Notes under the pieces: generated by a model | The model's database searches: none | Seen by the model: the letters and a program-made list of their open reading frames with translations, nothing else | Told to the model about the DNA's origin: nothing | Translations under genes and position numbers: made by a program | NCBI GenBank assembly: GCA_049966395.1 | Contig: JBMFUT010000003.1 | Location: 1 to 51,157, forward strand | Direction of reading: 5' to 3' | Origin: Candidatus Micrarchaeia archaeon | Lineage (GTDB): Archaea > Micrarchaeota > Micrarchaeia > Micrarchaeales > CABMGC01 | Length of the DNA: 51,157 bases | Shown: one piece after another, positions 2,770 to 38,260 of the stretch | Position numbering within the stretch: position 1 is the first letter of the stretch | Layout of the letters: the number at the start of each line of letters is the position of its first letter

Positions 2770-3375
2770 ATGGACAGCTACGATAATATATTTGGCATGC
2801 TCGAAACTGTTGAGAATGCCAGCAAAAGGCCAGAGTCTGTAGTCATAGACTCGGGCAAGGTGTTTTCCAGCAAGATAGAAGAAAAGATGTACAGTGTAGA
2901 AGAAACGCGCGCGCTTCTTAGCAAGCTTGAGGGAATAAGAAGAGTTGAGCAGGTGCAGTATGCCCCAGAAAAGACACAGTTTGCGGCGCAGCAACAACCA
3001 AGGGCAGGTGCTCCAGACATAACAAAAGAGATAGAGCAAATAGTTGGCAACGCTAGCAAGGACTTCGAGAAAAGCCTTGAAAGGGAGCTAGAAAAGATAG
3101 AAACCAAAAAGCTAATACTGCCTTCGCTTTCGCTGCAGGACCAGCTTTCAGAACTCGAGAAGATAAGCGAGGGGCTTGACGAGCAGGTTTTCGACGACGA
3201 GCAGCTCAAGATAATAGTGTCAGAAGTGAAAGGACTCAGGGAACGGCTGAAGTTCGAAAAGATGCCTGCAGAGCAGTTCCAAAGCTCTTTTATAGTGCCA
3301 AGGAACAATAGACTTATGGAAGTAGAAGAGAAGCTCTACAAAATGGGAAGGCTGCCTAAAGCGGCAAATACATAG
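2770..3375 (+). CDS. Hypothetical acidic coiled-coil protein inside the pilus operon
   Basis: 201-aa ORF with no TM segment, E/K/L-rich, tightly packed between the ATPase and platform genes. The antisense ORF 2778..3308 is low-complexity S/C-rich and looks like a shadow ORF. Confidence 0.55.
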   Translation: MDSYDNIFGMLETVENASKRPESVVIDSGKVFSSKIEEKMYSVEETRALLSKLEGIRRVEQVQYAPEKTQFAAQQQPRAGAPDITKEIEQIVGNASKDFEKSLERELEKIETKKLILPSLSLQDQLSELEKISEGLDEQVFDDEQLKIIVSEVKGLRERLKFEKMPAEQFQSSFIVPRNNRLMEVEEKLYKMGRLPKAANT

Positions 3376-3418: not shown

Positions 3419-4429
3419 ATGCAGCTGTTCAAAAAGAGAAATACAGTAAATGCGGGTGCTGGCAACGCACCGGTAGGTTTCACCAAGCCAAAAAAGTTTC
3501 TCTTTTTCAAGGTAAGGGCGAAGCCAATATATCCGCAAGCGCAACAGCTGCAAAATGCAGGCCATGCTCAAAACATGGCCGGGAAGACAAATATAACCAA
3601 ATTCCAAATGTATGTCGCCAAGGTGCTTGAAAAACAAAAAGACCTGGAAATGTCGCTAAGAGAACTGAACATAAAGGAAAGCGGCTTTGAATTCGTAAAA
3701 AAAATGATTATAAATTCGATAATAGTCAGCGCGATCATGTCTGTAACGATTTTCGTGCTTTTGCTTCATTATGGCCTTAACTTAGCTTATGGCATACTGT
3801 TTACCGCAGTGCTGTTTTATGCCTTCTATACGACATTTCTCGCAAGGTTTGTGCGTTATCCGATAGACAAAAGCAAGAGCATAGGCAGTGAAGTAGAGAA
3901 AGACATTTTGTTCGCAGCAAGGGACCTTGTGATAAGCATGCGTTCCGGCATGCCGCTGTTCAACGCCATGGTTGCAGTGAGTTCAGGTTACGGTGCAGCA
4001 AGCAAGGAATTTGAAAAAATAATAGACAGAGTTCAGCTGGGCATGCCCATAGAGCAGGCGATAGACGAGGTAAGCAGCAAAAGCAACTCTAAGACTTTCA
4101 AAAGGCTCATGCTCCAGGCTTCAGTGAGCATAAAGGCGGGTGCTGACATAGTAGGCGCGTTGCAAGGAGTAGTGGACGAAGTGATGCAGGAGAGGGTGAT
4201 AGAACTCAGAAGATACGGGCAAAGGCTTAACGCTCTCGCAATGTTCTACATGCTCTTTGGCATAATATTCCCGAGCATGGGGATAGCAGTGGTGGCGATA
4301 CTCACGACCTTCATAAGCCTTTTCACTGTGGACTTCACCACCCTGATATTCGGGCTCGTAGGCATATTCTTCCTACAGCTGATATTCCTCAACATAATGA
4401 GGTCGTCAAGACCTACTTTCGCAATGTGA
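3419..4429 (+). CDS. T2SSF-domain pilus platform membrane protein (TadB/FlaJ-half-like)
   Basis: TM helices flank a cytoplasmic T2SSF-like segment (DILFAARDLVISMRSGMPLFNAMVAVSS...IEQAIDEVS...LQASVSIKAGADIVGAL). The start is uncertain because the N-terminal 60 aa are poorly protein-like. Confidence 0.8.
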   Translation: MQLFKKRNTVNAGAGNAPVGFTKPKKFLFFKVRAKPIYPQAQQLQNAGHAQNMAGKTNITKFQMYVAKVLEKQKDLEMSLRELNIKESGFEFVKKMIINSIIVSAIMSVTIFVLLLHYGLNLAYGILFTAVLFYAFYTTFLARFVRYPIDKSKSIGSEVEKDILFAARDLVISMRSGMPLFNAMVAVSSGYGAASKEFEKIIDRVQLGMPIEQAIDEVSSKSNSKTFKRLMLQASVSIKAGADIVGALQGVVDEVMQERVIELRRYGQRLNALAMFYMLFGIIFPSMGIAVVAILTTFISLFTVDFTTLIFGLVGIFFLQLIFLNIMRSSRPTFAM

Positions 4430-4433
4430 TCCA

Positions 4434-5423
4434 ATGGTAGAATTTGAGAAGCTTGTCTCAAGGGAAATAGTGAGGATGCTTTCCAACGAGCTCGACCTTG
4501 CCGGCTTCAAGATTTCAGTAGAGAAATTCCTCAGAATAGCCATATTGGGAGGCATCGCGGTTTTGATTGCGGTTTCGTACACGCTATTTCTTGCATTCAA
4601 AATAAATGCCGGAATTTCTGCAATAGCAGGTATAGTCGGCCTTGCTGTATTCGAAATTGCTCTCTATGCCATACTTGAGTTCAGCATTGGCCGAAGGAAA
4701 ACGTTTGTGGAAAGCATACTTCCAGACTACCTTCAGATAACAGCAGCGAATGTGCGAAGCGGAATATCGCTTGACAAGGCTATGCTTTTGGCCGCAAGGC
4801 CAGAATTCAAGTACTTCAGCGACGACGTCAGACTTGTGAACAAGGAGCTGTATGGCGGCGAGACGCTGCAGAACACGTTACAGCTGCTCGCAAACAAGTA
4901 CAGGTCGTTGCAGCTCAAGCACACAATAAGGATGATAACCGAAGCCATACAGTACGGAGGCGGAATGACAGATTTGCTCAACCAGGTGGCAAAGGACACC
5001 AGGAACCAGCAAATGGTGCAAAAAGAGGTTTCGGGCCAGCTCTTTATGTATACTATTTTCATTGCATTTGCTGCGCTCGTCGGAGCCCCTGTCATGTATG
5101 CGCTAACATCCCAGATGATGGGCGTTACTAATACGGTATGGTCTGGAATATTGCAGCAAAATCCAGGAGGCCTCCCTACTGCCGGGCTTTCCTTCCTCAG
5201 GCCTTCGCCGCCGAAGATAACCACCCAGCAGTATCATATATTCGCGCTTACCGCAATACTGCTTATAACTGGTTTCGGCGCTTTCATAGTTTCGGCTATT
5301 TCAACAGGATCAATAGTAAACGGCATAAAATACTTGCCAGCTTTTCTTATAATTGGCTTTGCGGTTTTCTTCCTGACCTCGATGGCAATAGGAGGTATAT
5401 TCTCTTCGATAAGTGGGGTGTAG
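4434..5423 (+). CDS. Second T2SSF-domain pilus platform membrane protein (TadC/FlaJ-half-like)
   Basis: T2SSF-like segment LPDYLQITAANVRSGISLDKAMLLAA...TLQNTLQLLA...ITEAIQYGGGMTDLLNQVA with flanking TM helices. It lies 4 nt after the previous gene. Confidence 0.8.
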   Translation: MVEFEKLVSREIVRMLSNELDLAGFKISVEKFLRIAILGGIAVLIAVSYTLFLAFKINAGISAIAGIVGLAVFEIALYAILEFSIGRRKTFVESILPDYLQITAANVRSGISLDKAMLLAARPEFKYFSDDVRLVNKELYGGETLQNTLQLLANKYRSLQLKHTIRMITEAIQYGGGMTDLLNQVAKDTRNQQMVQKEVSGQLFMYTIFIAFAALVGAPVMYALTSQMMGVTNTVWSGILQQNPGGLPTAGLSFLRPSPPKITTQQYHIFALTAILLITGFGAFIVSAISTGSIVNGIKYLPAFLIIGFAVFFLTSMAIGGIFSSISGV

Positions 5424-27773: not shown

Positions 27774-30395
27774 CTATTGCGTGTTAGCAAGACCAAGAGC
27801 CTGCCATTCGTTTGCCGTGCCCGTAATCGCAGAAAGGCCTACAGATGGGTATGCTCCTGAAAAGTAAGGGTATGTCATGCTGTATGCAGTCCCGTTGTTG
27901 CCGTTGCCGCTGTAGTCATTAGAGTTGCCGTCCAATGGCCACCATGCTACCAGATCTGCATTAGGAAGCGGGACGCCATTTATGCCCTCTTTGTAAAGTT
28001 GTCTTATTTGACTGCCAGATAGGGATGTGTTATAGATTTGCACATTGGAAAGATTGCCATTCAGGTCATAGTTTGTGCACCCGCCTACTAGTTCTCCTAT
28101 GTAACCATAGCCGCCAGAATGCGCAGTCAGGGTGTTGCCTACCGGGACGCTGCCCTTGAAATCGCCGTCTGTATATATGCCTGCATTGGTGATATTGAAT
28201 GTTCCAGCAACGAAAACCCACTGGTTTGTTGGTAGAGGCGCATCGCCTCCAGTGTCTACAAAGCCGGTGCTTGTAGTGACTCTCATCTTTACATAGCCGC
28301 CCTCTATGAACAGCTCGTATTGAGCGTTGCAACCGTCTTGCTCGTATATGGCTGCGGTCGAATTAGAATGGGCATTGACCCATGCCGTCACAGTCAAGGA
28401 CTTGAATATGTTTAGCAGCTGGGAATTTCCAACATTTACATAGCTGTTCTGGTTGCCATTGAAATTTGCAGTCTGGAATAAAGCATTGGTAAGCTCAAGA
28501 GGCATCCTGCCTAGGTAGAGCTTTGGAGAAGAGCTGCTGCACTGCGAAGGCGTATCGCACGCGAGTACTCCTGGTATAGGCGAGACTTTTGTCGGGAGGG
28601 GTGCATAGAAGATGCTGTCCCTGCTGTAGTTTTGCAGCGCCAAGAATTGAACGCTGTTCAAGGCACCGTTGTTGTTGAATCCGCTGTAGTCGTTTGCGTT
28701 GCCATTGAGTGGCCACCAGCCTACAAGGCCGGAATTGCTTATCGGAGGAGCAGATATTCCTTCGTAGTAAAGCTGGGATACCTCTTGAGGAGTAAGCGTG
28801 GTGTTGTATATCTGCACGTTCGCTATGCTGCCAGTGAAATTGGCGCCGCTATTGCCTCCTCCAATGTTTGCTATTGTACCGACGCCTGTCTGAACGTTCG
28901 GAGTGCCTGTTCCAGAGCCCACATACGGAATTCCGTTTACATACACTATGGTGTTAGTTCCGCTGGCATACGTGAAACCTATAAAGTTCCACTGCCCATT
29001 GTCCACAAGAGGACCGGCGCAACGGTGGTCAGCCCAGCTGTCAGAGCAGGTTTGCCCGCTGTAAATTCCAAGAACCCAGTTTTCTTCGTTTGTTCCATAC
29101 AGACCATAATTAAACACGAATGGGTAATTTGCGTTTTCAGTGGTTTTTACCCAAGCGAAAATGCTTACTGGATGATTACCGCTTGGGAAGTTCGAATCTG
29201 ATATCTTGTTTATTCCAGGGCTAGGATATCCGCTGAAGCTCGCCGCTTGCCTGTTGTAGTTAGAAAAAGTAAATATGCCGTTCTGCGATTGCTTCAGGAG
29301 GCTGGCGCTTGCCCTGTCTAAATAAGAGGGCGCGAAAGGCGATGCGAAGTAATACCCGTTTGCTATTGCATTCCTCAAATTCTCTATGCTTAGAGTATCC
29401 ATGCCGGGGCCATAAAGTAGCACCTTGCTTCCGTTGTACAGGTAGCTGAGAACTCCAGAGCTGCTTGAGTATAAAAGATAGGGCACCGAAGGGGGCGCAT
29501 TTGTGTTGTTTATCTGGTAGGTTATGAGCCCACCGTAATTGTTTGCAGCCTTGCACGTTCCGTTTGTAATGTACTCCGCGTTTGGCGTTACCAGTATCAT
29601 CAAAGAATTGAAAGGAGGATTCTGGAAGCGTACCGGCACGTTGCTCGTAAGGCCGGTGCATGTGACGCCAGATGGCACGTTGATTACAGTTCCGTATATA
29701 AATCCGTTGCCAGCAGTTGCATACACATTGCCAATGATTCCAGTAAGGTTCTGAATTGCGCCAAACCTTATCTCGCGAAGTATGCCTTCCTGCGCATACA
29801 TAAGATCGTAAGTACCGTTAAGGGGCAATGTAGCATTTACAGGTATGCTGTAGCGGTATATACTGCCAGAGGAATTTATCGCTATGTTTTCCGTGTATTC
29901 AACCGAAATAGTATATGGGCTATACTGCATAATTACCGGTTGCGTCTCGTTTATGCCTATGATTTTCGCTCCTCCTACAAAACTGTTTAGAGATTTGTTG
30001 TATTTTGCCAGAGTCAAATTGCCCATGTAATTAGCGATTGCATTTGCGGCTGGAGAGCCTATTTGCGTGTATGGCAGTGTTCCGTTCTTAATCAGCTGGC
30101 CTGCGTACAAGTCAAGATTAGTTATAAAGTTGTCCTTCCTCAGAGACGCATTGTATTCATATGCTGTCAGTGTTCGCAGTGCAGCGCTCAGGCTTGACTG
30201 AGCGAAGCTGTCAGCGCCAAGTCTGAGAAGGTTGCCGTAGTTGCTCGAGCTTGCAGACATCGATACCTGCTGCTCTATGTTGTTATAGCCTATGTTCAAT
30301 ATCACAAATGTCATGAGCTCGGCAAGCATTAGCATGAATAGCACTAGCATCAGTATTGTCATTACCAATCCTTTCCTGCTGCTATTTAGCGCCAT
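27774..30395 (-). CDS. Pilin-like N-terminal helix protein with 2 LamG (Laminin_G_3/ConA-like) modules and a C-terminal orphan WWPL segment
   Basis: N-terminus MALNSSRKG|LVMTILMLVLFMLML. LamG end motifs IANVQIYNTTLTPQEVSQLYYEG and LSNVQIYNTSLSGSQIRQLYKEG. LamG start motifs GWWPLNGNANDYSGFNNNG and AWWPLDGNSNDYSGNGNNG. 10-nt overlap with the upstream gene. Confidence 0.8.
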   Translation of the reverse strand: MALNSSRKGLVMTILMLVLFMLMLAELMTFVILNIGYNNIEQQVSMSASSSNYGNLLRLGADSFAQSSLSAALRTLTAYEYNASLRKDNFITNLDLYAGQLIKNGTLPYTQIGSPAANAIANYMGNLTLAKYNKSLNSFVGGAKIIGINETQPVIMQYSPYTISVEYTENIAINSSGSIYRYSIPVNATLPLNGTYDLMYAQEGILREIRFGAIQNLTGIIGNVYATAGNGFIYGTVINVPSGVTCTGLTSNVPVRFQNPPFNSLMILVTPNAEYITNGTCKAANNYGGLITYQINNTNAPPSVPYLLYSSSSGVLSYLYNGSKVLLYGPGMDTLSIENLRNAIANGYYFASPFAPSYLDRASASLLKQSQNGIFTFSNYNRQAASFSGYPSPGINKISDSNFPSGNHPVSIFAWVKTTENANYPFVFNYGLYGTNEENWVLGIYSGQTCSDSWADHRCAGPLVDNGQWNFIGFTYASGTNTIVYVNGIPYVGSGTGTPNVQTGVGTIANIGGGNSGANFTGSIANVQIYNTTLTPQEVSQLYYEGISAPPISNSGLVGWWPLNGNANDYSGFNNNGALNSVQFLALQNYSRDSIFYAPLPTKVSPIPGVLACDTPSQCSSSSPKLYLGRMPLELTNALFQTANFNGNQNSYVNVGNSQLLNIFKSLTVTAWVNAHSNSTAAIYEQDGCNAQYELFIEGGYVKMRVTTSTGFVDTGGDAPLPTNQWVFVAGTFNITNAGIYTDGDFKGSVPVGNTLTAHSGGYGYIGELVGGCTNYDLNGNLSNVQIYNTSLSGSQIRQLYKEGINGVPLPNADLVAWWPLDGNSNDYSGNGNNGTAYSMTYPYFSGAYPSVGLSAITGTANEWQALGLANTQ
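27892..27947. repeat. 56-nt LamG-start repeat, copy 1
   Basis: ccgttgttgccgttgccgctgtagtcattagagttgccgtccaatggccaccatgc. The first 43 nt are identical to copy 3 (34414-34456). Confidence 0.9.
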
Positions 30396-32566
30396 GCATA
30401 TACACCCACATTGTAAAGATTTGAAATTCCGCTGGTACTGTTGGTAAGCCCAATTGGCATTGATGCTTTTGCAACTTCGAAAGCGTTTGCCATGCCGCTT
30501 GGGATGTATCCAGCGCCCTGGTAGTTTATGTTAAGAGAATAGCCGGTGTCAGGGATAACGCCGTATTGATTATAGTCGTTAGTGTCGCCTTCTAGGGGCC
30601 ACCATGCCGTAGCGCCGTATACGATCGGCTGCGCTGCCATACCGCTAAGGTATACTCCCGCAGCCTGCGAAGCCGAAAGGGATTTGTTGTATATCTGCAC
30701 GCCGGCTATCATGCCTTTGAAGTACCCAGAAGGATATGCTGGAGAATTGCCAAGGCTGATTGCACCAGGGTAGTGCGCAATTGAAGTGCTCTTTGCAAAC
30801 GACACTAGGTTGCCGTTGACATAAATCGAAAGCTGGGATTGACCGTGCACAATAGAGGCATAGGTTACAATAATATTGGTCCAATTGTCCAATGACACTG
30901 GCGCATAGACGGTATAGCCTGCAGCACCGTTGTTTATTGTAAATTCTATCCTGTATGGTGCGGAAGCATTTGAAGTTTCCATCATTATCGGGCTTCCTGC
31001 ATTCGTCGTGTTCTCGCCCATTATCACCGTGTTTGCTGACCACGAGCTAGCGTTAATCCAAAGAGACCAGGTGTAGTAGTAACTCATCAGGTTTTGATAG
31101 CTTCCGAGCAGCACTTTGCTGCTAGCGCCATTGAAAGCTGCTATGCGCATGCCTGGCGCATAGTTGTTGTTCAAGAATATGCTGTAGTTAGACATTGGGT
31201 AAAGTCTGTTAGCAAGCGCGGTTGCGCAGCTGCCTTCACCATTGAGGTACATTGATGCCACTGCACCTAGCATAGTGCCGTTAGCCGCATTGCAGGCGCC
31301 GAATGCAATGACATAGTCGCCTATTCCGACATAGAGCCTCCCGTAAGCAAGCGTCATATACGGAAGAATCTGGCTGCCGTAAAGTTGCAAAGGAAGCTGC
31401 TCCGCCCACGCGATGTTGCCATTGGTCATGTTTTGTGCCACAAGATAGCCGTTTGACCACAGTGTATACATTAGTTTGTTAGATATTACAGGATATGATC
31501 CTGGAACTGCGCTGCCAACATATTGCGGCATTGGACCGGCTCCGGATGGCCAAAGCGTTGATCCAGAAGGTGAAAGCAGCCCGTCTGTAGTAGCACCCTG
31601 GAAGGCAATATAGCCGTCGTAAGCGCTCGCGCCATAAACCTGTGATCCGGCAGGATAGGAGAATACAGAAGAATCGCCAACATTTGTGGCGTTAACGCTT
31701 GAGCCTGCACCCATGATTATCATGTTGTTGTATGTCGTCAGGTTGCTTGTAGAGACAGGATAAGAATAGTACCACATCTGCTTTGCAGAGCCTCCCTCGT
31801 TCACTATGAGCATCTTGACGTTGGAAGAGGATCTTGTGGCTATCGAGCCTGAAACTGCGGATATTGAAGTTGGGCTATAGCCTGTGTTGTTGTACCATGC
31901 TACGGTGCCGTTGTTAGCGAAAAAGGCGTAAATATAATTGTTCGCGGCGCCGAAAAGCACCTTGTTGTTGTAAACCTTTATTGGTGATGTGAGATAGCCT
32001 ATCGAAGTGATGGCGTTTGTGCTCCATACCAGCATGCCATTGTTTGCGTTTAGTGCAGTCATGTTTGAGGAGTTTGCAAATATGAGCATGTTGTTGTAGA
32101 GCGCGGGGGTCTTAGAAACTGCGGTCTGTACGTTCTTGCTCCATCTTAGAGCTCCGGTGCTCGCGTTTATGGCATATATTACATTGCCGGCTGCAAAATA
32201 TATGTTACCGTAGTCTGCCACAATTCCCGTAGTGGGCGGCGATGCCGACTTGAATACGAAAGATATGTACGGCAGGAGCGGGCCGTGTGGATTGCCAGCG
32301 TTGTTCATGGCGTTGTTCATGAACTGAGGCCACGTTTCGTTTGAAGCAGATGACTGGTATGCAGCCGCATATGCCACCTGGCTATTGCCGGCTATGCTCC
32401 ATACACTTGAAGAGTCCAACTCATTCATTATCGAAGAGGCTTCTGAGTATCTTATGACATAAGGCGTCGAGGGCAAATAGTAGAAGTATAGCAGTATGGA
32501 AAGGCTTGCTGTCGCTATTATCAATGCGAAGACAGCGTCCACTGTGAATACTATGCCCTTCATCAT
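30386..32566 (-). CDS. Pilin-like N-terminal helix protein with PQQ-like beta-propeller and one LamG module
   Basis: N-terminus MMKG|IVFTVDAVFALIIATASLSILL. Repeats of the type IYAINASTGALRWSKN, MTALNANNGMLVWSTN and IYAFFANNGTVAWYNN. LamG end IAGVQIYNKSLSASQAAGVYLSG followed by AWWPLEGDTNDY. ATGA overlap with the upstream gene. Confidence 0.8.
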   Translation of the reverse strand: MMKGIVFTVDAVFALIIATASLSILLYFYYLPSTPYVIRYSEASSIMNELDSSSVWSIAGNSQVAYAAAYQSSASNETWPQFMNNAMNNAGNPHGPLLPYISFVFKSASPPTTGIVADYGNIYFAAGNVIYAINASTGALRWSKNVQTAVSKTPALYNNMLIFANSSNMTALNANNGMLVWSTNAITSIGYLTSPIKVYNNKVLFGAANNYIYAFFANNGTVAWYNNTGYSPTSISAVSGSIATRSSSNVKMLIVNEGGSAKQMWYYSYPVSTSNLTTYNNMIIMGAGSSVNATNVGDSSVFSYPAGSQVYGASAYDGYIAFQGATTDGLLSPSGSTLWPSGAGPMPQYVGSAVPGSYPVISNKLMYTLWSNGYLVAQNMTNGNIAWAEQLPLQLYGSQILPYMTLAYGRLYVGIGDYVIAFGACNAANGTMLGAVASMYLNGEGSCATALANRLYPMSNYSIFLNNNYAPGMRIAAFNGASSKVLLGSYQNLMSYYYTWSLWINASSWSANTVIMGENTTNAGSPIMMETSNASAPYRIEFTINNGAAGYTVYAPVSLDNWTNIIVTYASIVHGQSQLSIYVNGNLVSFAKSTSIAHYPGAISLGNSPAYPSGYFKGMIAGVQIYNKSLSASQAAGVYLSGMAAQPIVYGATAWWPLEGDTNDYNQYGVIPDTGYSLNINYQGAGYIPSGMANAFEVAKASMPIGLTNSTSGISNLYNVGVYAWR

Positions 32567-33093
32567 CCCACACCGAAGCTCGTATTAGTCCATACGTATA
32601 TCTTGACCTGGACCGGCATGCCATTGAGGATTGCGCCCTTTGTAGCAACCTGCACGGAAGTCGCACCCATTGGAGCAGGATTCAATCCTATCGGTATGTA
32701 TATGCCGCTGCCAGAGATAACCAGATAGTAGTCATAGCTTATGCCAAGCAAGGATTTAGTCGCCTGGTAGTTGTAGTTTGAAATTGAGACAAGCGCAGCT
32801 ATCTTCTGCGGCGAGAGAATGCTGCCTGTTCCTGCGCCTATGCCAACGCTTATGTTCTGCCATGTCGCGGTGTTGTTTGCCGCTATAATATCGTTCCAAT
32901 CCGAGGGATTTCCAGTCGAAAGCAGATTGTTTTGTAGACTTGACAGTTCAGCCTGCATGCTCTCCATGCCGTAGCCGTATGCAAGCGAGAACTGGTTGTT
33001 TATGTTGAACCACACATAGCCTATTATGAGTATTGCAAAAGAAAATATTACCATAGCGAATATCACGTCAAAAGACCAGAACTGCAACTTCAT
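32563..33093 (-). CDS. Small pilin-like protein
   Basis: MKLQFWSFDVIFAMVIFSFAILIIGYVWF followed by a ~140-aa beta-rich domain. ATG 33093 overlaps the upstream stop (ATGA); ORF-track TTG 33102 is an alternative start. Confidence 0.7.
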   Translation of the reverse strand: MKLQFWSFDVIFAMVIFSFAILIIGYVWFNINNQFSLAYGYGMESMQAELSSLQNNLLSTGNPSDWNDIIAANNTATWQNISVGIGAGTGSILSPQKIAALVSISNYNYQATKSLLGISYDYYLVISGSGIYIPIGLNPAPMGATSVQVATKGAILNGMPVQVKIYVWTNTSFGVG

Positions 33094-36000
33094 GGCGACC
33101 AACTCATTGGAATTGCACGCGGCGCATATGCGGGCATGCCGCTCTGGTAGAGCTGCAATATCTGCTGTGCTGAAAGTGACGTGTTGAATATTTGCACATT
33201 TGCAATAGAGCCATTGAAGAAATAAGTACCAGTATTGCCATCGAGAGCATCACCTATGTAGCCAACCTCGTCGTAGTTGCTAAGGTAGTTTCCGGCAGGC
33301 ACAATTGCCGATGAATAATACTGGCCGTCGACGTAAAGCGAAAGCACTTTGGTAGCGTTGTTGTAGTCTCCGGTGAGCATGTACCACGTGTTGGGCTGAA
33401 GATGTGCCGAACCAGGTGCAATGCCGCCTCCGGTTGTAGGGCATCCGGGAGGATTGCTCGGATTTGACGTGTACCATTCAAAAAAGGTTATTAGATTGGG
33501 AGAGCTTAGCATGAAGCCTGTATGACATCCTGGCCAGCCTACAGGAAACGGATTTTGGCCGAAATACTGCGAGCCACCGTGCCAGTTGAGCCACGTATTT
33601 ACTGTGAAAGAACTATGCCCGTTGAGCGCCTGCAATGGAGGCAGTTGAATGCTTCCGCCGTGCCCATTAAATGTCACTCCATAGCCTTCAATGGAGCTTA
33701 CAAGCGCAAATCTATTTGGCTGCTGCGCGTTATAAATTATGTTTGACGGCGCACCGTTGTTGCCATTGCCGCTGTAGTCATTAGAGTTGCCTTCTAGAGG
33801 CCACCACGCAATCATTTTCTGGCCTGAAATTGGTATTCCGGATATTCCCTCTCCGTAGAGCTGCGAAACTTGGGAAGGGGTAAGTGTCTGGTTGTAGAGC
33901 TGTATATTCGCAATGCCTCCTGCAAACGGAGAAATTCCTGCCGCTGACTGGCCTATAGCAAGCGCATTCAGCGAATACGGACCAGTTGGTATTGTTAAAT
34001 TGTATGGTCCTGCGCCGTTGGCGTAAAGGCTAGCCTTCCCATTTGACACAGAAACTGCAAGCATGTTCCATGAGCTGCCGTTTATCCCGTAACCGTGATA
34101 TAAGTTTGTCCCAAAGCCTATCTCCTCATCACCGCTTCCCACTGGCGCACCGAGGCTGCCTCCATTGTTGAGCCACATCTGGAAATTGTTTGCTCCGATT
34201 GAGTTGAATATTGTATAACCGTTTACGCTTGTCATCTTTGAAGTGCTGGCGCCGTTGACCCACAGTACAGCCGCAAAAGAAGGAGTGTTGAAACTTATTG
34301 GAGTAATTATCATGCTGTTTGCGCCATTGAATTCTGCAGCTAGAATGCTACTTTGATAGCCATCGTAGTTGCCGACGCCTGGCGCCACAAAAGAAGCGCT
34401 ACCATAGAGAGTGCCGTTGTTGCCGTTGCCGCTGTAGTCATTAGAGTTGCCGTCCAGAGGCCACCACGCGACAAGGCCGCTTGAAAACGGTGGAGCGGAC
34501 AATCCTTCCTGGTAGAGTTGCGCGACTTGGGGAGGAGTAAGCACAGTGTTGTATATCTGGACGTTTGCCAGATCACCATTAACATTGCCGTCGTTGTCTT
34601 CCGGCCCGCCAAATGCCACTGGCAACGCTGATTTAGGTATGCTTCCGCTGTAAGAAATGTTGCAATACAGGTTGCCGTTGACATACTCATTGAGCATCAC
34701 TCCGTTGAAAGTAAAACCGACAAGGTACCAGCTGTTAGGGTTTAGCGCAAAAGGATAGCTGCTGCACACTCCGCTTGTCCCCCAAACGTATCCTGCGAAC
34801 TGCCCTTGCGCTGCGCCATTGACGCCGATTTTCATGCCGTACGATCCTTGCTTCTGCAATACGGCAGTCGCCTGGGATGAGGGTTTTACCCATGCAAACG
34901 CGCTCATTGTGCTGCTTGGAGACAGCGAAGGCGAGCTTGCTGCGTAAATGTAGCCTCCGCTCATGCTTGCGACGTAGTTTGGCATTGACCACGCAGTCTG
35001 CACCATGTTTCCATTGTTGCCTCTGCCACTGAGATCGTATGCAATATTTCCGCTTCCAAGGTTAAGAGGCCACCATGCAACAAGATTCTGCTCTGAAGAA
35101 ATATTACCAGAAAATGCTGTTGCTTTTACGGTTGCTGTGCCACTTGAATTGTAATTCAGAAAGGCAACGGCAACTCCGTTTGAATTAGTGTAGTTTACAA
35201 CTGCATTGCCAAATCCGCTTGCGCTCGTAAGCGTTCCAAAAGTAGTAGCAAATCCTACCAGTGCATTAGAAACATACGCACCAAAGGCATTTGTAACTTT
35301 AGCCATCAGCTCTGCCACTGAAGTAAATATGATAGAGCCATAGACAGTACTTCCGCTTACAACGCCACCGTAGTCTTTGGCGTTGCCGTCAAGTGGGAGC
35401 CAATCGAGCAGGCTCGCATTTGAAAGAGGAGGCGCCCCTATGCCTTCGCTGTACAGCTTTTCTATTTCCCCTGCTGAAAGCGAAGAGTTGTAAACTTGCA
35501 CGTTGGCGATTTCTCCTGATATCGGATTGCATCCGCCCCCAGAAGTGACAGGAGTTGCACCACTTACCGCTACTCCGTCGTAAGATATAGGCACATTTGC
35601 ACTCACAGGCGCGCCGATCTGCTGGCCGTTGAGCCATACTGAAAGGTATGTGCCATTATACCTTCCAACCAAGTATTGCCAGGTATTAGGGCGCAAATGC
35701 ACACCTGGAAAATCCCTGTATTGCGTACCTCCAGTAGTAGTAACACTCCACGATTCTGTTGGAGGGTTCGCACCTGCCTCTATGAAAAAGTAGTAGTTAT
35801 TCCAGCATCCCGCACTTCCGCTCACCGCATTTTCCCAGTAGTTGCCAGGATTGCCCCAGTAGCCGTTGTTAACAGGAAATAACCAGAAGCCTACTGTTAT
35901 CGCATTGGTAGATTGAGCAGTTGCAGGCGCTCTTATATACCCTGCAGGGCTCTGGGAAAAGCTTGCTGCATAGACGTTCTCAGAGCTCAGATTTATGCTG

Positions 36001-36485
36001 CTTGCAGTATTGATATAGCTCCTTTGGCAGTTGTAATCAACGCACACCTCGCCATAGTAGCTCTGTATGCTTATTGTGCCGTTCTGCAGAGGCAGCTGGT
36101 AGGAAGTAGCGGATTTTGCAAAACTCTGAGACGAGACCACAGACTTTGCTGCAGAGTATGCCCTCGCCTGGACAAGCTGCTCTCCCACGCGCATGCTCGC
36201 CACAACAATTCCGCTCTTAGTGACGGTTAAATTATAAGGTAGCATGCCTATTGTGCTGGATATCGGGAGCTGCACTGTATAGCCGTTGCCAGCAGTGGCG
36301 GCATTGCTCATTGCCATCGCCACGCTTTGAGCGACAAGCTGCAACTGCGAAAATGACTGGTAGCTCATGCCCAACGATCTCTGGCTGGTTATAAGGGCGA
36401 AGATAAAGATAAATACAAGAAGCACGAACGAGAACACTAGCAGGAACTCGAGTGCAATCTGCGCTCTTGGCGTGGTCAGCTTCAT
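33090..36485 (-). CDS. Giant modular pilin-like protein with 4 LamG modules and one Ig-like module
   Basis: N-terminus MKLTTPRAQ|IALEFLLVFSFVLLVFIFIFALI. Four module ends: IANVQVYNSSLSAGEIEKLYSEG, LANVQIYNTVLTPPQVAQLYQEG, IANIQLYNQTLTPSQVSQLYGEG and IANVQIFNTSLSAQQILQLYQSG. WWPL-type motifs occur four times. 1131 aa. Confidence 0.85.
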   Translation of the reverse strand: MKLTTPRAQIALEFLLVFSFVLLVFIFIFALITSQRSLGMSYQSFSQLQLVAQSVAMAMSNAATAGNGYTVQLPISSTIGMLPYNLTVTKSGIVVASMRVGEQLVQARAYSAAKSVVSSQSFAKSATSYQLPLQNGTISIQSYYGEVCVDYNCQRSYINTASSINLSSENVYAASFSQSPAGYIRAPATAQSTNAITVGFWLFPVNNGYWGNPGNYWENAVSGSAGCWNNYYFFIEAGANPPTESWSVTTTGGTQYRDFPGVHLRPNTWQYLVGRYNGTYLSVWLNGQQIGAPVSANVPISYDGVAVSGATPVTSGGGCNPISGEIANVQVYNSSLSAGEIEKLYSEGIGAPPLSNASLLDWLPLDGNAKDYGGVVSGSTVYGSIIFTSVAELMAKVTNAFGAYVSNALVGFATTFGTLTSASGFGNAVVNYTNSNGVAVAFLNYNSSGTATVKATAFSGNISSEQNLVAWWPLNLGSGNIAYDLSGRGNNGNMVQTAWSMPNYVASMSGGYIYAASSPSLSPSSTMSAFAWVKPSSQATAVLQKQGSYGMKIGVNGAAQGQFAGYVWGTSGVCSSYPFALNPNSWYLVGFTFNGVMLNEYVNGNLYCNISYSGSIPKSALPVAFGGPEDNDGNVNGDLANVQIYNTVLTPPQVAQLYQEGLSAPPFSSGLVAWWPLDGNSNDYSGNGNNGTLYGSASFVAPGVGNYDGYQSSILAAEFNGANSMIITPISFNTPSFAAVLWVNGASTSKMTSVNGYTIFNSIGANNFQMWLNNGGSLGAPVGSGDEEIGFGTNLYHGYGINGSSWNMLAVSVSNGKASLYANGAGPYNLTIPTGPYSLNALAIGQSAAGISPFAGGIANIQLYNQTLTPSQVSQLYGEGISGIPISGQKMIAWWPLEGNSNDYSGNGNNGAPSNIIYNAQQPNRFALVSSIEGYGVTFNGHGGSIQLPPLQALNGHSSFTVNTWLNWHGGSQYFGQNPFPVGWPGCHTGFMLSSPNLITFFEWYTSNPSNPPGCPTTGGGIAPGSAHLQPNTWYMLTGDYNNATKVLSLYVDGQYYSSAIVPAGNYLSNYDEVGYIGDALDGNTGTYFFNGSIANVQIFNTSLSAQQILQLYQSGMPAYAPRAIPMSWSP
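33755..33810. repeat. 56-nt LamG-start repeat, copy 2
   Basis: ccgttgttgccattgccgctgtagtcattagagttgccttctagaggccaccacgc. Three mismatches to copy 3. Confidence 0.9.
34414..34469. repeat. 56-nt LamG-start repeat, copy 3
   Basis: ccgttgttgccgttgccgctgtagtcattagagttgccgtccagaggccaccacgc. Encodes (antisense) WWPLDGNSNDYSGNGNNG. Confidence 0.9.
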
Positions 36486-36489
36486 GATA

Positions 36490-36960
36490 TCATATCGGGG
36501 ATATGTACACGCAAGGCAAAGGCTGCTGGTCAGGGCATGATGATGTGGCAGTGACGTTTATCAGGTATGTGCCAGTAGAAGTTATGCCTCCAAGGTTGCC
36601 GCTAACGTTCACAGGAGTGTAAGACGTGACGTAGTCGTAACCTGAAGGAGATCTTATTACAAATATTATTTCGTGGCCGATGTTGCCCTGCTGCGTACCC
36701 ACGTATATGAACTGCACTCCAGGCGGCATTTGTATCTGCACTAGCTGCTTTGCAGGAGGCCCTTCGCTTCCTACAAGCGTGGCTATGCTAGCAAGTTTCG
36801 ATGCTGCCTGCTGGGACTCTATGCCTGCCATTGATGAACTTGCAGAAGCAACCTGGAGAAACGCAAGTACAACTATAGGCAGCAGGATAGCAAGGCCTAG
36901 CGACAGTGTTATGAGTAGCTCGAAGCTGGATTGCGCCTTGAAAGAACCGGCTTTAGTCAT
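36490..36960 (-). CDS. Pilin-like protein with class III (Epd/DUF361-like) signal peptide
   Basis: MTKAGSFKAQ|SSFELLITLSLGLAILLPIVVLAF followed by a ~120-aa globular part. ATG 36960 overlaps the CBS gene end; ORF-track start 36972 is an alternative. Confidence 0.75.
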   Translation of the reverse strand: MTKAGSFKAQSSFELLITLSLGLAILLPIVVLAFLQVASASSSMAGIESQQAASKLASIATLVGSEGPPAKQLVQIQMPPGVQFIYVGTQQGNIGHEIIFVIRSPSGYDYVTSYTPVNVSGNLGGITSTGTYLINVTATSSCPDQQPLPCVYISPI

Positions 36961-38092
36961 ACTCCCCTCCACCCGACTTCTTGTACGAGACTATTATTTC
37001 CTTCATCTCCTTTGCCCTCTTGTAGAGCCTGTCGTATATCTCGTCTAGAGCCTCGCTCAAAGTGTAGCCTGCAGCCGACGCCGAGATGCTGCCCTTCTTC
37101 GCGAGCTCTATCCTGCCGTGCATTTCGTAGTTCCTTGCTTTAGACCTTTTTACGTGCAGCGATACATAGCTGACGCCTACCTTGGTAAACCTTCCTACCG
37201 CGTTTGCCAGGTCGTCCATTTTATCTGTTATTTCGTCCTTGTATTCGCTCGTGTAATCGTCAAGCCCTGAGATTATTATCTTGTTCTTGCGTAGCGTGGA
37301 ATTTATGGCGAATGCCTCGAAAACGTCCCTGATTGTAAGTATTCCCACAGGCTTGCCGTGCCTTACAACAAGCAGCGAAGATATGTTGTGCTCCAGGAAT
37401 TCCCTTATGGCGTTTTCTATTGGCGTGCCATACTCTACAGTGTATATGTTCCTCTCGCAAACGCTGCTGACAGGCGTGTTGCTCATTGAATATAGCTTGC
37501 TTTTCATTTCAGGCGCTCTTTCCACTGGATTTGCTATTATGCTCATGAGGTTTTTGTTAGTCAGGAGGCCGAAAACTCTGCCGCCGCTTATAACAACGAG
37601 CCTGTTTATCCTTCCCTGTCTCATCGCAGCCTGCGCCTGCGCTATGTTTGCAGATGCATCTATTGCCACCACTGGGGAAGACATGGCGTCTTCAACCTTG
37701 AAATCTGAAAGCAAGTGCAGCGAGAGCATCGCGCTCAATATCTTCTCTCTTTTTAATATGCCACGCATCCTGCTGCCCTCTGTGTACGGAAGCGCCTTCG
37801 CGGCTGTGTTGTAGAATGCCATTATGCTTTCTTCTATCGACATGTCGTTAGTCACAGCAGGCAGTTTCCTGGCGAACTTACCTATCTGGAACTTGTCGGT
37901 AAGCCTGCGCGCGCTTATCCTTGAAATAGACCTGTCGTCAACTATCCCAAAATACTTCTTGTTTTTTACCACTATTGCGGCGCCAACGCTGTTTATGCTG
38001 CTTATTGCTTCGGTAACTGGGGTCTTGTAGTCGTAGAATTTGACTTTTGTCACAAAAGAATCCGGTACAGTTTCGAATGCTCGCTTCATCAT
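36953..38092 (-). CDS. Four-CBS-domain protein with C-terminal HPF/RaiA (ribosome hibernation factor)-like domain
   Basis: Four CBS-like units in aa 1-265. The C-terminal ~105 aa (KIIISGLDDYTSEYKDEITDKMDDLANAVGRFTKVGVSYVSLHVKRSKARNYEMHGRIELAKKGSISASAAGYTLSEALDEIYDRLYKRAKEMKE) follow the beta-alpha-beta-beta-beta-alpha pattern and key positions of YfiA/HPF as I remember them. Confidence 0.75.
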   Translation of the reverse strand: MMKRAFETVPDSFVTKVKFYDYKTPVTEAISSINSVGAAIVVKNKKYFGIVDDRSISRISARRLTDKFQIGKFARKLPAVTNDMSIEESIMAFYNTAAKALPYTEGSRMRGILKREKILSAMLSLHLLSDFKVEDAMSSPVVAIDASANIAQAQAAMRQGRINRLVVISGGRVFGLLTNKNLMSIIANPVERAPEMKSKLYSMSNTPVSSVCERNIYTVEYGTPIENAIREFLEHNISSLLVVRHGKPVGILTIRDVFEAFAINSTLRKNKIIISGLDDYTSEYKDEITDKMDDLANAVGRFTKVGVSYVSLHVKRSKARNYEMHGRIELAKKGSISASAAGYTLSEALDEIYDRLYKRAKEMKEIIVSYKKSGGGEYD

Positions 38093-38112
38093 GCAATCAC
38101 TAGCCTTATGCT

Positions 38113-38127
38113 GAATAAATTTATAGT
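38113..38127 (-). promoter_or_regulatory. TATA-like box for the CBS/pilin operon
   Basis: CTATAAATTTATT on the minus strand, centred about 28 nt upstream of ATG 38092. This implies a leaderless or very short-leader transcript. Confidence 0.35.
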
Positions 38128-38144
38128 TATTAATGCCAACGCAT

Positions 38145-38160
38145 TTTATTTATATATATT
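38145..38160 (+). promoter_or_regulatory. TATA-like box for tRNA-Cys
   Basis: TTTATTTATATATATT centred about 37 nt upstream of the mature tRNA 5' end. Confidence 0.4.
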
Positions 38161-38189
38161 GCATAACAAATTTTAACAGGCTTTAACGA

Positions 38190-38260
38190 GCCAGGATGGC
38201 AGATTGGCTATGCGGCCGCCTGCAGAGCGGCACAGGGGGGTTCGATTCCCTCTCCTGGCT
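38190..38260 (+). tRNA. tRNA-Cys (anticodon GCA)
   Basis: GCCAGGA/TCCTGGC acceptor stem, anticodon stem GCCGC/GCGGC with loop CUGCAGA, T arm GGGGG-TTCGATT-CCCTC and discriminator U. No encoded CCA. Confidence 0.9.

What the first reader, a model, noticed from the sequence alone, without database searches (positions are those of the whole stretch)
27774..36972. Five-gene translationally coupled operon of pilin-like proteins, three of them giant LamG/beta-propeller modular proteins: candidate adhesive pilus-tip or host-contact system
Five minus-strand genes (160, 1131, 179, 726 and 873 aa) are joined by a 4-nt gap, two ATGA overlaps and a 10-nt overlap. Every product starts with a short positively charged N-terminus followed by a ~20-aa hydrophobic helix, i.e. 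class III or prepilin-like: KAQ|SSFELL, RAQ|IALEFLL, KLQFWSFDVIF, KG|IVFTVDAVF and RKG|LVMTIL. The three large proteins together carry seven LamG (Laminin_G_3-type) modules. These are recognisable by the recurring start motif WWPL[DEN]GN[SA]NDYSG.GNNG and the end motif ANVQIYN..L...Q...LY.EG. They also carry an Ig-like module and a PQQ-like beta-propeller. All are very poor in charged residues and rich in N-x-S/T sequons, which fits exposed, glycosylated and possibly acid-stable proteins. Modular pilins with grafted lectin modules and large minor-pilin/PilY1 tip complexes are known in bacteria. I am not aware of a described archaeal pilus built around a 4xLamG pilin. Such a set is a plausible cell-cell or host attachment device, consistent with an episymbiotic lifestyle. 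The only assembly machinery in the window is at 50-5423.
Basis: partly seen in the sequence, partly recalled or inferred. Interest (0 to 1): 0.85.

Follow-up and report, generated by a model that had tools for sequence, protein, structure and literature searches.

The report
Lectin-bearing pilin set of Micrarchaeota
This operon of a tiny acid-loving symbiotic archaeon (Micrarchaeota) most likely encodes the subunits of a type IV pilus whose members carry sugar-binding (LamG) and propeller modules, a probable device for sticking to a host cell; this kind of system has been predicted before, but not in this form.

Summary
Five coupled minus-strand genes are present, with seven LamG modules (Pfam E 1e-17 to 4e-61) and one BamB/PQQ-like propeller. 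Charged residues make up only 6-9%.

The pilin reading is supported by four results:
- The N-terminal motifs are conserved across about 50 species. A leader of 3-26 aa ends in K/R plus a small residue, followed by Q+1/E+5 in g1 and g2.
- AlphaFold models of g1 and g3 show a 50-60-residue N-terminal helix plus a beta-rich head (pLDDT 86).
- g1 has distant ~140-aa relatives with canonical [KR][GA]Q.S.E class III signals. The same module heads g2 and other giant proteins.
- In about 35 of 39 informative Micrarchaeota species, g5 is followed directly by orthologues of the ATPase/TadC cluster that lies at 50-5423 in this window.

- A CBS-domain gene overlaps the g1 start, and CBS-g1 is a separate, near-universal module.
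- The canonical cleavage site is one residue earlier than marked.
- The -1 residue is often Leu, which is not canonical.
- The sequon density is explained by composition.
- The Ig-like module is only weakly supported.

The link between LamG genes and pilus loci was noted for Mia14 in 2017, and large ConA-like tip adhesins were modelled in 2016. I rate this a new variant of a known kind. Cleavage, filament formation and host binding are untested.

The parts
36953..38092 (-). CBS-domain protein (379 aa). It is the first gene of the unit and overlaps the g1 start by 8 nt. An A/T-rich TATA-like region lies upstream at about 38093-38160.
   Evidence: Pfam CBS 1.2e-30. Sequence of the junction and upstream region. 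A CBS gene abuts g1 in 66 of 67 metagenome loci.
36490..36960 (-). g1: small pilin-like protein (156 aa from ATG 36960). The leader ends in KA, followed by QSSFELL (Q+1, E+5). There are two invariant Cys near the C-terminus. It is the most conserved member and a candidate shaft subunit.
   Evidence: (AF2 pLDDT 86.5, helix 7-66 plus 6 strands).
33090..36485 (-). g2: modular pilin-like protein (1131 aa). Leader MKLTTPRA, then QIALEFL. Layout (aa and approximate nt): g1-type module aa 1-~150 (36036-36485); LamG1 ~175-345 (35451-35963); weak Ig-like 390-464 (35094-35318); LamG2 471-660 (34506-35075); LamG3 674-880 (33846-34466); LamG4 894-1115 (33141-33806).
   Evidence: Pfam Laminin_G_3 3.7e-61 with 4 stretches and Big_1 1.5e-4. 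Motifs. g1-profile hits on the N-terminus of g2 orthologues, E 1e-9 to 1e-3.
32563..33093 (-). g3: small pilin-like protein (176 aa from ATG 33093). Leader MKL, then QFWSFDVIFA. The C-terminal WTNTSFGV is conserved.
   Evidence: (AF2 pLDDT 86.1, helix 8-57 plus alpha/beta head).
30386..32566 (-). g4: modular pilin-like protein (726 aa). Leader MMKG, then IVFTVDAVFAL (g3-type N-terminus). BamB/PQQ-like beta-propeller at aa ~100-440 (nt ~31247-32269). LamG at ~480-640 (nt ~30647-31129). Orphan WWPL strand at aa 655. Conserved C-terminal strand ..YNVGVYAWR.
   Evidence: Pfam PQQ_2 1.5e-18 and Laminin_G_3 1.3e-17. BamB in PDB at 2e-13. hhalign g3 against the g4 N-terminus, probability 94%. C-termini.
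27774..30395 (-). g5: modular pilin-like protein (873 aa). Leader MALNSSRKG, then LVMTIL..MLAE (conserved E+17). Unassigned N-domain at aa ~60-385. LamG-A ~385-545 (nt ~28761-29243). LamG-B 560-805 (nt ~27981-28718). Orphan WWPL strand at aa 818.
   Evidence: Pfam Laminin_G_3 6.7e-35 with 2 stretches..
50..1264 (+). Coiled-coil protein (404 aa), first gene of the assembly cluster. It is conserved next to the ATPase in related loci.
1270..2760 (+). Type IV pilus-type assembly ATPase (GspE/FlaI/VirB11 family, 496 aa).
   Evidence: Pfam T2SSE 2.8e-33. PDB matches: A. fulgidus GspE2 2OAP 4e-63 and FlaI 6e-58. Orthologues (61-76% identity) flank the operon in other species.
2770..3375 (+). Conserved acidic 201-aa protein between the ATPase and the TadC genes. 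Its role is unknown.
3419..5423 (+). Two TadC/FlaJ-type platform proteins (336 aa and 329 aa).
   Evidence: Pfam T2SSF 3.9e-15 and 1.5e-14. Orthologues 50-71% identical lie convergent to g5 in related loci.

Best explanation
The region encodes the pilin set of a Micrarchaeota type IV pilus-like (T4P) system.

It is made of three evolutionary modules:
- [CBS-g1]: a cytoplasmic CBS-domain protein coupled to a small, highly conserved DUF361-style pilin.
- [g2-g5]: one small and three modular pilin-like proteins. Their globular parts are LamG lectin-type arrays and a BamB-like propeller.
- The assembly machine at 50-5423: a coiled-coil protein, a GspE/FlaI-type ATPase, a 201-aa protein and two TadC platform proteins.

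Proposed mechanism (inferred, not shown):
1. The five preproteins insert N-in into the membrane.
2. A prepilin peptidase encoded elsewhere removes the short basic leader at [KR][G/A/(L)]|Q or |hydrophobic.
3. The coupled genes g2-g5 yield a roughly equimolar complex held together by the N-terminal helices, which primes assembly on the TadC platform.
4. The ATPase drives extrusion, so the large LamG and propeller modules end up at the distal end.
5. g1 (E+5, small, most conserved) polymerises beneath them as the shaft, or acts as a further core subunit.
6. The LamG modules bind glycans on the wall-less Thermoplasmatales host or in the biofilm matrix, giving attachment.

Shown here: gene structure, domains, conserved N-terminal motifs, predicted helix-plus-head architecture, homology of g1 and the g2 N-terminus to class III signal proteins, and genomic linkage to the machine.
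For: Gene structure and domains:
- Gene coupling and domain content.

N-terminal motifs across 18-54 orthologues per family:
- Position -2 is K/R in 89-100%.
- Q+1 is invariant in g1-g3.
- E+5 is conserved in g1 and g2.
- Position -1 is G or A in 93-98% of g4 and g5.
- Leader length varies (3-26 aa) while the mature N-terminus is fixed.
- This matches the M. maripaludis DUF361 pilins: leader of 5-13 aa, +1 Q and +5 E (PMC3875500).

Predicted structure:
- AF2 g1: helix 7-66 plus a beta head.
- AF2 g3: helix 8-57 plus an alpha/beta head. Both have pLDDT of about 86.

Homology:
- The exhaustive profile search with g1 found 483 clusters. These include ~135-165-aa proteins aligned over nearly the whole profile that start with [KR][GA]Q.S.E, one of them named 'UPF0333 family'.
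- The g1-type module heads g2 in nearly all loci and heads giant surface proteins elsewhere.
- The N-termini of g3 and g4 are paralogous (hhalign 94%).

Genomic linkage:
- 7 of 7 loci from exact look-ups, and about 35 of 39 informative species representatives, have TadC-TadC-p201-ATPase-coiled-coil convergent right after g5. These genes are orthologous to window 50-5423.

Evolutionary rates:
- g2-g5 evolve faster (32-58% identity) than the ATPase (61-76%) or g1 (62-82%), as expected of exposed adhesins.

Literature:
- Mia14 has type IV pili loci linked to LamG genes and one FlaK-like prepilin peptidase (PMC5498576).
Against: - No family model for pilins passes threshold. Pfam Class_IIIsignal scores 9-13 bits for g2 orthologues and at most 17.2 bits for g1 relatives, against a cut-off of 23.7.
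- Foldseek finds no significant match of the g1 or g3 models to any solved pilin.
- Position -1 is Leu, Met or Val in 55% of g1, 29% of g2 and 24% of g3 orthologues. This is outside the G/A(/S) rule known for archaeal prepilin peptidases.
- No prepilin peptidase lies in the window or in any fetched locus.
- In this window the machine is 22 kb away.
- About half of g1 loci lack g2-g5 nearby, and most species lack g1 next to g2-g5. The role of g1 as the shaft of this system is therefore a guess.
- No filament, cleavage or binding data exist.
Confidence: 0.68

Rival explanations
1. Bindosome-like surface display rather than a pilus. The T4P-type machine processes and anchors the large lectin/propeller proteins as a short pseudopilus or envelope-embedded complex. 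Carbohydrate-binding modules are presented at the cell surface without a long filament.
For: - Three of the five subunits are huge, which is hard to reconcile with a packed filament.
- No small (~70 aa) major pilin lies in the locus.
- Most species have g2-g5 plus the machine without g1 nearby.
- The ATPase also matches the bindosome ATPase BasE, far below threshold at 126 bits against 1000.
Against: - g1 has the size, E+5 and conservation of a polymerising pilin.
- Pilus-like links between ARMAN cells and Thermoplasmatales have been seen by microscopy (cited in PMC5498576).
- The LamG modules are not substrate-binding proteins of transporters, and no ABC transporter is linked to the operon.
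Confidence: 0.17
2. Ordinary signal-anchored (uncleaved, type II) surface lectins. The N-terminal helices are plain membrane anchors. The neighbourhood with the ATPase/TadC genes reflects co-regulation or conserved synteny only.
For: - Leu, Met or Val is frequent at -1 in g1-g3.
- Pilin family models are sub-threshold.
- There are no structural matches to solved pilins.
- No peptidase is in sight.
Against: - Plain anchors do not need an invariant Q+1 with E+5, or D+6, placed exactly after a K/R-x motif behind leaders of variable length.
- The helices are predicted to run 50-60 residues, far past the hydrophobic stretch.
- g1 relatives carry the canonical [KR][GA]Q.S.E motif.
- Adjacency to the machine holds in about 35 of 39 species at 41-58% identity.
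Confidence: 0.08
3. Glycan capture or degradation complex for nutrition. The LamG/ConA-like and propeller modules bind or process extracellular polysaccharide, and the pilin-like N-termini serve only as anchors.
For: - The only solved homologue of a module is the LamG-like domain of an extracellular arabinanase, 5HON.
- Laminin_G_3 belongs to the ConA-like lectin/glucanase superfamily.
Against: - No catalytic glycoside hydrolase family was detected.
- The 5HON match is to a non-catalytic accessory domain.
- This reading does not explain the conserved link to the T4P machine.
Confidence: 0.05

Closest known systems
Clade-1 archaeal type IV pili (Epd pili of Methanococcus maripaludis; model of Makarova, Koonin and Albers 2016, PMC4858521)
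   Same: - ATPase plus two TadC genes.
- Several minor pilins with DUF361-type signals (+1 Q, +5 E).
- Pilins of 130-300 aa encoded in operons.
- Large ConA-superfamily proteins predicted as tip adhesins.
- Major pilin genes often stand-alone.
   Different: - The large proteins here are Laminin_G_3 arrays and a BamB-like propeller, not DUF2341. There was no DUF2341 hit.
- Each large protein carries its own pilin-type N-terminus.
- Position -1 is often Leu.
- Per the Mia14 paper, only a FlaK-like peptidase is reported in Micrarchaeota, not the 9-TM EppA.
- A CBS-domain gene is coupled to the small conserved pilin.
- The clade of the ATPase was not determined here.
Bacterial minor-pilin/PilY1 tip initiation complexes (FimU-PilVWX-PilY1; GspHIJK)
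   Same: - A co-transcribed set of four to five low-abundance pilin-like proteins, plus a large adhesin with a beta-propeller.
- Some members lack E+5.
- g4 has a conserved extreme C-terminal strand, which recalls the PilY1 C-terminal strand that complements PilK (PMC12918778).
   Different: - There is no sequence or Foldseek relationship.
- PilY1 has no pilin N-terminus, whereas g4 does.
- The propeller is BamB/PQQ-type and did not hit the PilY1 family.
- Strand complementation here is only an idea.
Modular type IV pilins of bacteria (e.g. Streptococcus sanguinis PilB and PilC, PMC8179133)
   Same: A pilin module is fused to grafted adhesion or lectin modules, so that the filament itself carries the adhesin.
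   Different: - Bacterial examples carry one grafted module. Here up to four LamG modules plus an Ig-like module, or a propeller plus LamG, are carried on three subunits of one operon.
- This system is archaeal.
TafC, tip adhesin of haloarchaeal Tat-fimbriae (PMC11821415)
   Same: An archaeal filament subunit with a C-terminal laminin G-like domain placed at the tip. The LamG modules of g2 and g5 hit the TafC model (E 4.5e-19 and 1.3e-14).
   Different: - The scores are far below the TafC cut-off (69 and 54 bits against 410).
- Tafi are Tat-exported and assembled by donor-strand exchange, not by a T4P machine.
- There is no twin-arginine motif here.
LamG gene expansion linked to type IV pili loci in 'Ca. 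Mancarchaeum acidiphilum' Mia14 (Golyshina et al. 2017, PMC5498576)
   Same: Same phylum, and the same association of LamG genes with type IV pili loci. A role in host interaction was proposed there too.
   Different: - That paper treats the LamG proteins as neighbours located on a genomic island. It does not describe them as pilin-type subunits.
- It does not describe the conserved g2-g5 set, the CBS-g1 pair, or the phylum-wide arrangement of 10-11 genes found here.

Membership tests
Archaeal type IV pilin-like proteins (class III signal peptide) | Short basic leader ending in [KR][G/A], directly followed by a hydrophobic stretch of about 20 residues | tested here: met
   All five window proteins meet it. 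Across orthologues, -2 is K/R in 89-100% and -1 is G or A in 93-98% of g4 and g5. Caveat: -1 is L, M or V in 24-55% of g1-g3 orthologues.
Archaeal type IV pilin-like proteins (class III signal peptide) | Pilin architecture: long N-terminal alpha-helix followed by a beta-rich globular head | tested here: met
   AF2 g1: helix 7-66 plus 6 strands, pLDDT 86.5. AF2 g3: helix 8-57 plus helices and a 4-strand sheet, pLDDT 86.1.
Archaeal type IV pilin-like proteins (class III signal peptide) | Structural similarity of the head to solved pilins or archaellins | tested here: inconclusive
   Foldseek against PDB: best E 0.005 (g3, ribosomal uS3) and 0.025 (g1). No pilin was among the matches. There were no PDB sequence relatives.
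Archaeal type IV pilin-like proteins (class III signal peptide) | Cleavage of the leader by an A24-family prepilin peptidase (PibD/FlaK/EppA) | not testable with these tools
   No such gene lies in the window or in the fetched loci. Mia14 is reported to have one FlaK-like peptidase (PMC5498576).
Archaeal type IV pilin-like proteins (class III signal peptide) | Genomic association with a GspE/FlaI-type ATPase and a TadC/FlaJ platform | tested here: met
   About 35 of 39 informative species have the machine convergent right after g5. It is orthologous to window 50-5423. In the window itself it is 22 kb away.
Pfam PF04021 Class_IIIsignal (DUF361 / UPF0333) | Score above the gathering cut-off (23.7 bits) | tested here: not met
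   g2 orthologues score 9.4-13 bits. g1, g3, g4 and g5 have no hit. Distant g1 relatives reach at most 17.2 bits.
Pfam PF04021 Class_IIIsignal (DUF361 / UPF0333) | Motif with +1 Gln and +5 Glu after the leader | tested here: met
   Q+1 and E+5 are invariant in g1. In g2, Q+1 is invariant and the consensus QIALEF is kept at 80% or more. g3 has Q+1 but D+6. g4 and g5 lack both. The motif is defined in PMC3875500.
Pfam PF13385 Laminin_G_3 | Score above the gathering cut-off (27.6 bits) | tested here: met
   g2 206 bits (4 stretches), g4 64.7 bits, g5 120.9 bits (2 stretches).
PilY1/PilC tip adhesins | PilY1-type C-terminal propeller family hit and absence of a pilin N-terminus | tested here: not met
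   The g4 propeller hits PQQ_2, the ACSF4 propeller family and BamB, not the PilY1 family. g4 has a pilin-type N-terminus. The resemblance is functional analogy only.
Clade-1 archaeal T4P adhesins (arCOG03508, DUF2341) | DUF2341 domain | tested here: not met
   No DUF2341 hit at E <= 0.1 in g2, g4 or g5. Only the ConA-like superfamily is shared.
TafC (NCBIfam NF052521) | Score above the cut-off (410 bits) and a Tat signal | tested here: not met
   68.8 and 54.1 bits, covering the LamG part of the profile only. The N-termini have no twin-arginine motif.
Sulfolobus bindosome (Bas system) | BasE-type ATPase above the cut-off, and substrates that are solute-binding proteins | tested here: not met
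   BasE 125.9 bits against 1000. The substrates here are LamG/propeller proteins.

The most novel reading that the evidence does not exclude
The system may not be a conventional pilus with a tip adhesin. It may be a T4P-extruded complex built almost entirely of modular lectin-pilins.

Each large subunit carries one LamG leading strand with no LamG body behind it: g2 aa 352-362, g4 aa 655 and g5 aa 818. The first LamG body of each large subunit has no canonical leading-strand motif. These spare strands, or the conserved C-terminal strand of g4, could lock neighbouring subunits together by inter-subunit beta-strand complementation.

The result would be a load-bearing multivalent lectin head that forms the physical bridge between ARMAN cells and their wall-less hosts. 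The energy-sensing CBS protein coupled to g1 would gate filament growth.
Probability: 0.15. Interest if true: 0.8.

Novelty: new variant of a known kind. Interest (0 to 1): 0.55.

Why it matters
DPANN archaea such as Micrarchaeota depend on physical contact with a host, and the molecules that make this contact are essentially unknown. Genome papers on DPANN commonly report that no pilins could be annotated, and they treat LamG proteins as Sec-secreted (e.g. PMC9563170).

This analysis names a concrete set conserved in most Micrarchaeota sampled:
- a conserved small pilin (g1);
- four pilin-like proteins carrying seven lectin-type modules and a propeller;
- their cognate assembly machine.

That makes the attachment question directly testable in the cultivated micrarchaeon-Thermoplasmatales co-cultures. 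Suitable experiments are filament proteomics, antibodies against the LamG modules, glycan arrays and cryo-ET. The set would also add a heavily modular example to the small group of pilins with grafted adhesion modules, and the first archaeal one I could find in the papers searched.

Tried and rejected
- Exact look-up of g4 in the public gene index found nothing, because the window itself is masked.
- Foldseek of both AF2 models against PDB gave only insignificant matches: uS3, OB-fold-like proteins and GFP.
- The PDB sequence search with the g1 profile gave only chance hits with E of about 1.
- hhalign of g1 against g3 shows no relationship beyond the signal region. The five proteins are therefore not one family. 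They fall into two N-terminal types, g1/g2 and g3/g4, with g5 separate.
- The Pfam scan of isolated N-termini gave only sub-threshold Class_IIIsignal, DUF7287 and TadE/TadF hits.
- A motif scan of the window found no further small pilin gene.
- A motif scan for a prepilin peptidase found none in the window or in 145 loci.
- The search with the g5 N-domain returned only 11 close relatives and no annotation.
- The Mia14 supplements did not list the pilus-locus genes in the text that is held.
- The idea that the operon is a genomic island, as in Mia14, is rejected. It sits in conserved synteny across the phylum (CBS, NUDIX/UDG and the exosortase-family gene), and its GC content is only about 3% above the surroundings.
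- Specific enrichment of sequons is rejected.

Full report
**1. What is there**

The window holds five tightly packed minus-strand ORFs:

| Gene | Coordinates | Length |
|---|---|---|
| g1 | 36490-36972 | 160 aa from GTG |
| g2 | 33090-36485 | 1131 aa |
| g3 | 32563-33102 | 176 aa from ATG 33093 |
| g4 | 30386-32566 | 726 aa |
| g5 | 27774-30395 | 873 aa |

- Pfam finds Laminin_G_3 four times in g2 (3.7e-61), once in g4 (1.3e-17) and twice in g5 (6.7e-35).
- g4 also has a PQQ_2 propeller (1.5e-18). g2 has a sub-threshold Big_1 hit.
- The solved relatives of the propeller are BamB proteins.
- The repeated boundary motifs are real at protein and DNA level.
- Aligned to the only solved homologue, the 209-aa LamG-like domain 5HON, WWPLDGNSNDYSGNGNNG is the leading strand and ANVQIYN..LT..QV.QL is the C-terminal end of a module.
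- Charged residues make up 6-9% of the five proteins, against 21-35% in the window's cytoplasmic proteins.
- The 60 sequons are no more than the high N, S and T content predicts.

**2. Corrections to the anatomy**

- The best g1 start is ATG 36960, with GGTGGAGGGGAG just upstream.
- That start overlaps by 8 nt the stop of a 379-aa CBS-domain gene at 36953-38092 (Pfam CBS 1.2e-30).
- The A/T-rich, TATA-like upstream region lies in front of the CBS gene, next to a tRNA-Cys.
- The transcription unit is therefore probably CBS-g1-g2-g3-g4-g5.

**3. Organism and spread**

- Homologues of g3 (52 clusters) and g1 (354 clusters) that carry a name are nearly all labelled Micrarchaeota, Micrarchaeia or Micrarchaeaceae; one g1 cluster is labelled Marsarchaeota.
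- A scan of one genome per GTDB species with the g3 profile gave 56 loci. All are Micrarchaeota MAGs apart from a few differently labelled bins.

**4. Are the N-termini pilin-like?**

Across orthologues the residue two positions before the hydrophobic helix is K/R in 89-100%.

| Protein | Mature N-terminus | Position -1 |
|---|---|---|
| g1 | QSSFELL(I/V)TL; Q+1 and E+5 invariant | A, L or G |
| g2 | Q[IF][AS].E[FY] | A, L, S or G |
| g3 | QFWSFDVIFA | A, G, L or M |
| g4 | ..FT.DA.FAL | G or A in 98% |
| g5 | .L.T......LM.aE | G or A in 93% |

- The leaders vary from 3 to 26 residues while the following sequence is fixed.
- This is the pattern of the M. maripaludis DUF361 pilins processed by EppA: leader of 5-13 aa, +1 Gln and +5 Glu (PMC3875500).
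- AlphaFold models built on family alignments give a 60-residue N-terminal helix plus six strands for g1, and a 50-residue helix plus a small alpha/beta head for g3. Both have pLDDT of about 86.
- An exhaustive profile search with g1 found 483 clusters. Beyond the close family lie many 135-165-aa proteins that align over almost the whole profile (E 1e-13 to 1e-7). They start with the canonical MKGQVSVELLVV, MRKAQVGIEVVV or KSRKAQLSIEYLI. One is named 'UPF0333 family' and two are from Micrarchaeota.
- The same module heads proteins of 645-2060 aa.
- A g1 profile also hits the first 60-140 residues of g2 in nearly every locus. hhalign of g1 against the g2 N-terminus gives 88% probability.
- The N-termini of g3 and g4 are paralogous over 82 columns (94% probability).
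- g2 and g4 are therefore modular versions of g1-type and g3-type pilin-like proteins.

**5. Weak points of the pilin call**

- Pfam Class_IIIsignal stays below its cut-off everywhere.
- Foldseek and the PDB sequence searches find no solved pilin.
- Leu, Met or Val at -1 is common in g1-g3.
- No prepilin peptidase is in the window or in any fetched locus. Its presence in the phylum rests on the report for Mia14 (PMC5498576).

**6. Link to the assembly machine**

- The window's only machine is at 50-5423: a coiled-coil protein, a T2SSE ATPase, a 201-aa protein and two T2SSF/TadC proteins.
- The ATPase is closest to A. fulgidus GspE2 and to FlaI.
- In all seven related loci fetched by exact look-up, g5 is followed convergently, within 10-260 nt, by TadC-TadC-~200 aa-ATPase-~400 aa.
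- These are orthologues of the window's genes. The ATPase is 61-76% identical and the TadC proteins 50-71%.
- Among species representatives with enough downstream DNA, about 35 of 39 show the same arrangement.
- The window is one of the few genomes where about 22 kb of housekeeping genes separates the two clusters. The convergent orientation is preserved.

**7. Modules**

The synteny tables show two classes of locus:
- Class A (the window plus 17 loci): ...CBS-g1-g2 (about 1100-1140 aa)-g3-g4-g5, often with an exosortase-family gene a few kb upstream.
- Class B: no CBS or g1 within 10 kb, and a g2 of about 900-960 aa.

A metagenome scan with the g1 profile adds the following:
- The CBS gene abuts g1 in 66 of 67 loci.
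- A g2-type gene follows g1 in only 32 of 61 loci. In L140, for example, CBS-g1 stands alone.
- g1 is also the most conserved member, at 62-82% identity against 32-58% for g2-g5.
- CBS-g1, g2-g5 and the machine are therefore three modules, joined in class A genomes.
- A conserved, often separately encoded small pilin alongside a fast-evolving coupled set of large pilin-like proteins fits 'shaft subunit plus initiation/tip complex'. That assignment is an inference.

**8. Mechanism proposed**

See Best explanation. In short: class III processing, priming on the TadC platform by the g2-g5 helix bundle, ATPase-driven extrusion that places the LamG and propeller modules distally, g1 beneath them, and glycan-mediated adhesion to the host or matrix.

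The main rival is a bindosome-like display without a long filament.

**9. Comparison with what is known**

- Makarova et al. 2016 modelled clade-1 archaeal pili with two TadC genes, five or more minor pilins and two large DUF2341 (ConA-like) 'PilY-like' tip adhesins.
- Golyshina et al. 2017 noted that some of the expanded LamG genes of Mia14 are linked to its type IV pili loci.
- TafC shows a LamG tip adhesin on a Tat-dependent archaeal fimbria.
- Bacterial modular pilins and PilY1-minor pilin complexes are functional analogues.

What I did not find described in the papers searched:
- LamG and propeller proteins that themselves carry pilin-type N-termini.
- The conserved g2-g5 quartet.
- The CBS-g1 pair.
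- The arrangement of 10-11 genes conserved in most Micrarchaeota sampled.

I therefore rate this a new variant of a known kind, of moderate to good interest. It is a well-supported prediction rather than a surprise, and it yields concrete experiments on DPANN host attachment.

**10. Unexplained**

- Each large protein has one LamG leading-strand motif with no LamG body behind it (g2 aa 352-362, g4 aa 655, g5 aa 818).
- The first LamG body of each large protein has no canonical leading-strand motif.
- g4 ends in a conserved strand..YN[VI][GS]V..W[RK].

Noticed in passing
window 36953-38092 (-) with g1 at 36490-36960; L140 4761-6450: A CBS-domain gene is translationally coupled to g1. It abuts g1 in 66 of 67 metagenome loci, even where g2-g5 are absent (29 of 61 loci). 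The pair looks like a conserved module of its own. The role of a cytoplasmic CBS (adenosyl-ligand-sensing type) protein next to a pilin is unexplained.
   Followed up: partly
window g2 aa 352-362 (nt ~35400-35430), g4 aa 655-726 (nt 30386-30604), g5 aa 818-873 (nt 27774-27944): There are orphan LamG leading-strand motifs (WWPL/WLPL..G..NDY) with no LamG body behind them. The first LamG body of each large protein has no canonical leading-strand motif. g4 also ends in a conserved strand ..YNVGVYAWR, and g2 ends in [LMV]SW[SY]P. This may reflect intra- or inter-subunit strand complementation.
   Followed up: partly
window 38391-39893 (+): A 500-aa exosortase/archaeosortase-family protein (Pfam Exosortase_EpsH 1.8e-14) with an extra C-terminal half and sequon enrichment (9 observed against 2.9 expected, z = 4). 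It is syntenic upstream of the operon in many class A loci. None of g1-g5 shows a C-terminal sorting signal.
   Followed up: partly
window 5424-27773: About 22 kb of housekeeping genes separates the pilin operon from its assembly cluster. These include a GT4 glycosyltransferase, Trm1, SMC, an M50 protease, an ABC-2 transporter, AlaX, PEPCK and tRNA-Gln. In about 35 of 39 other species the two clusters are adjacent. The convergent orientation is kept, which suggests a translocation into the junction.
   Followed up: partly
P0207 (2060 aa), P0277 (1766 aa), P0185 (1356 aa), P0186 (645 aa): g1-type pilin modules head other giant multidomain surface proteins in metagenomes, including some with Kelch-like 'YIYCMGG' repeats and LamG. 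Modular pilins therefore seem to recur in these archaea.
   Followed up: no
orthologue alignments of g1-g3: Position -1 of the predicted class III cleavage site is Leu, Met or Val in 24-55% of orthologues, outside the known G/A(/S) rule. Either the micrarchaeal peptidase has relaxed specificity or some members are not cleaved.
   Followed up: no
window 16014-19733 (-): A 534-aa CARDB/NEW3-domain surface protein with only 8.8% charged residues lies next to an ABC-2 permease and an ATPase. It is another exposed protein with the same acidophile-type composition.
   Followed up: no
window 9571-10584 (-): A 337-aa protein with two sub-threshold matches to archaeal signal peptidase I (44.7 bits against 51.85). 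It is about twice the usual length.
   Followed up: no
window 38189-38261 (+): tRNA-Cys (GCA) lies in the divergent intergenic region between the CBS promoter region and the exosortase-family gene. Three more tRNAs are at 22866, 43425 and 48992.
   Followed up: no
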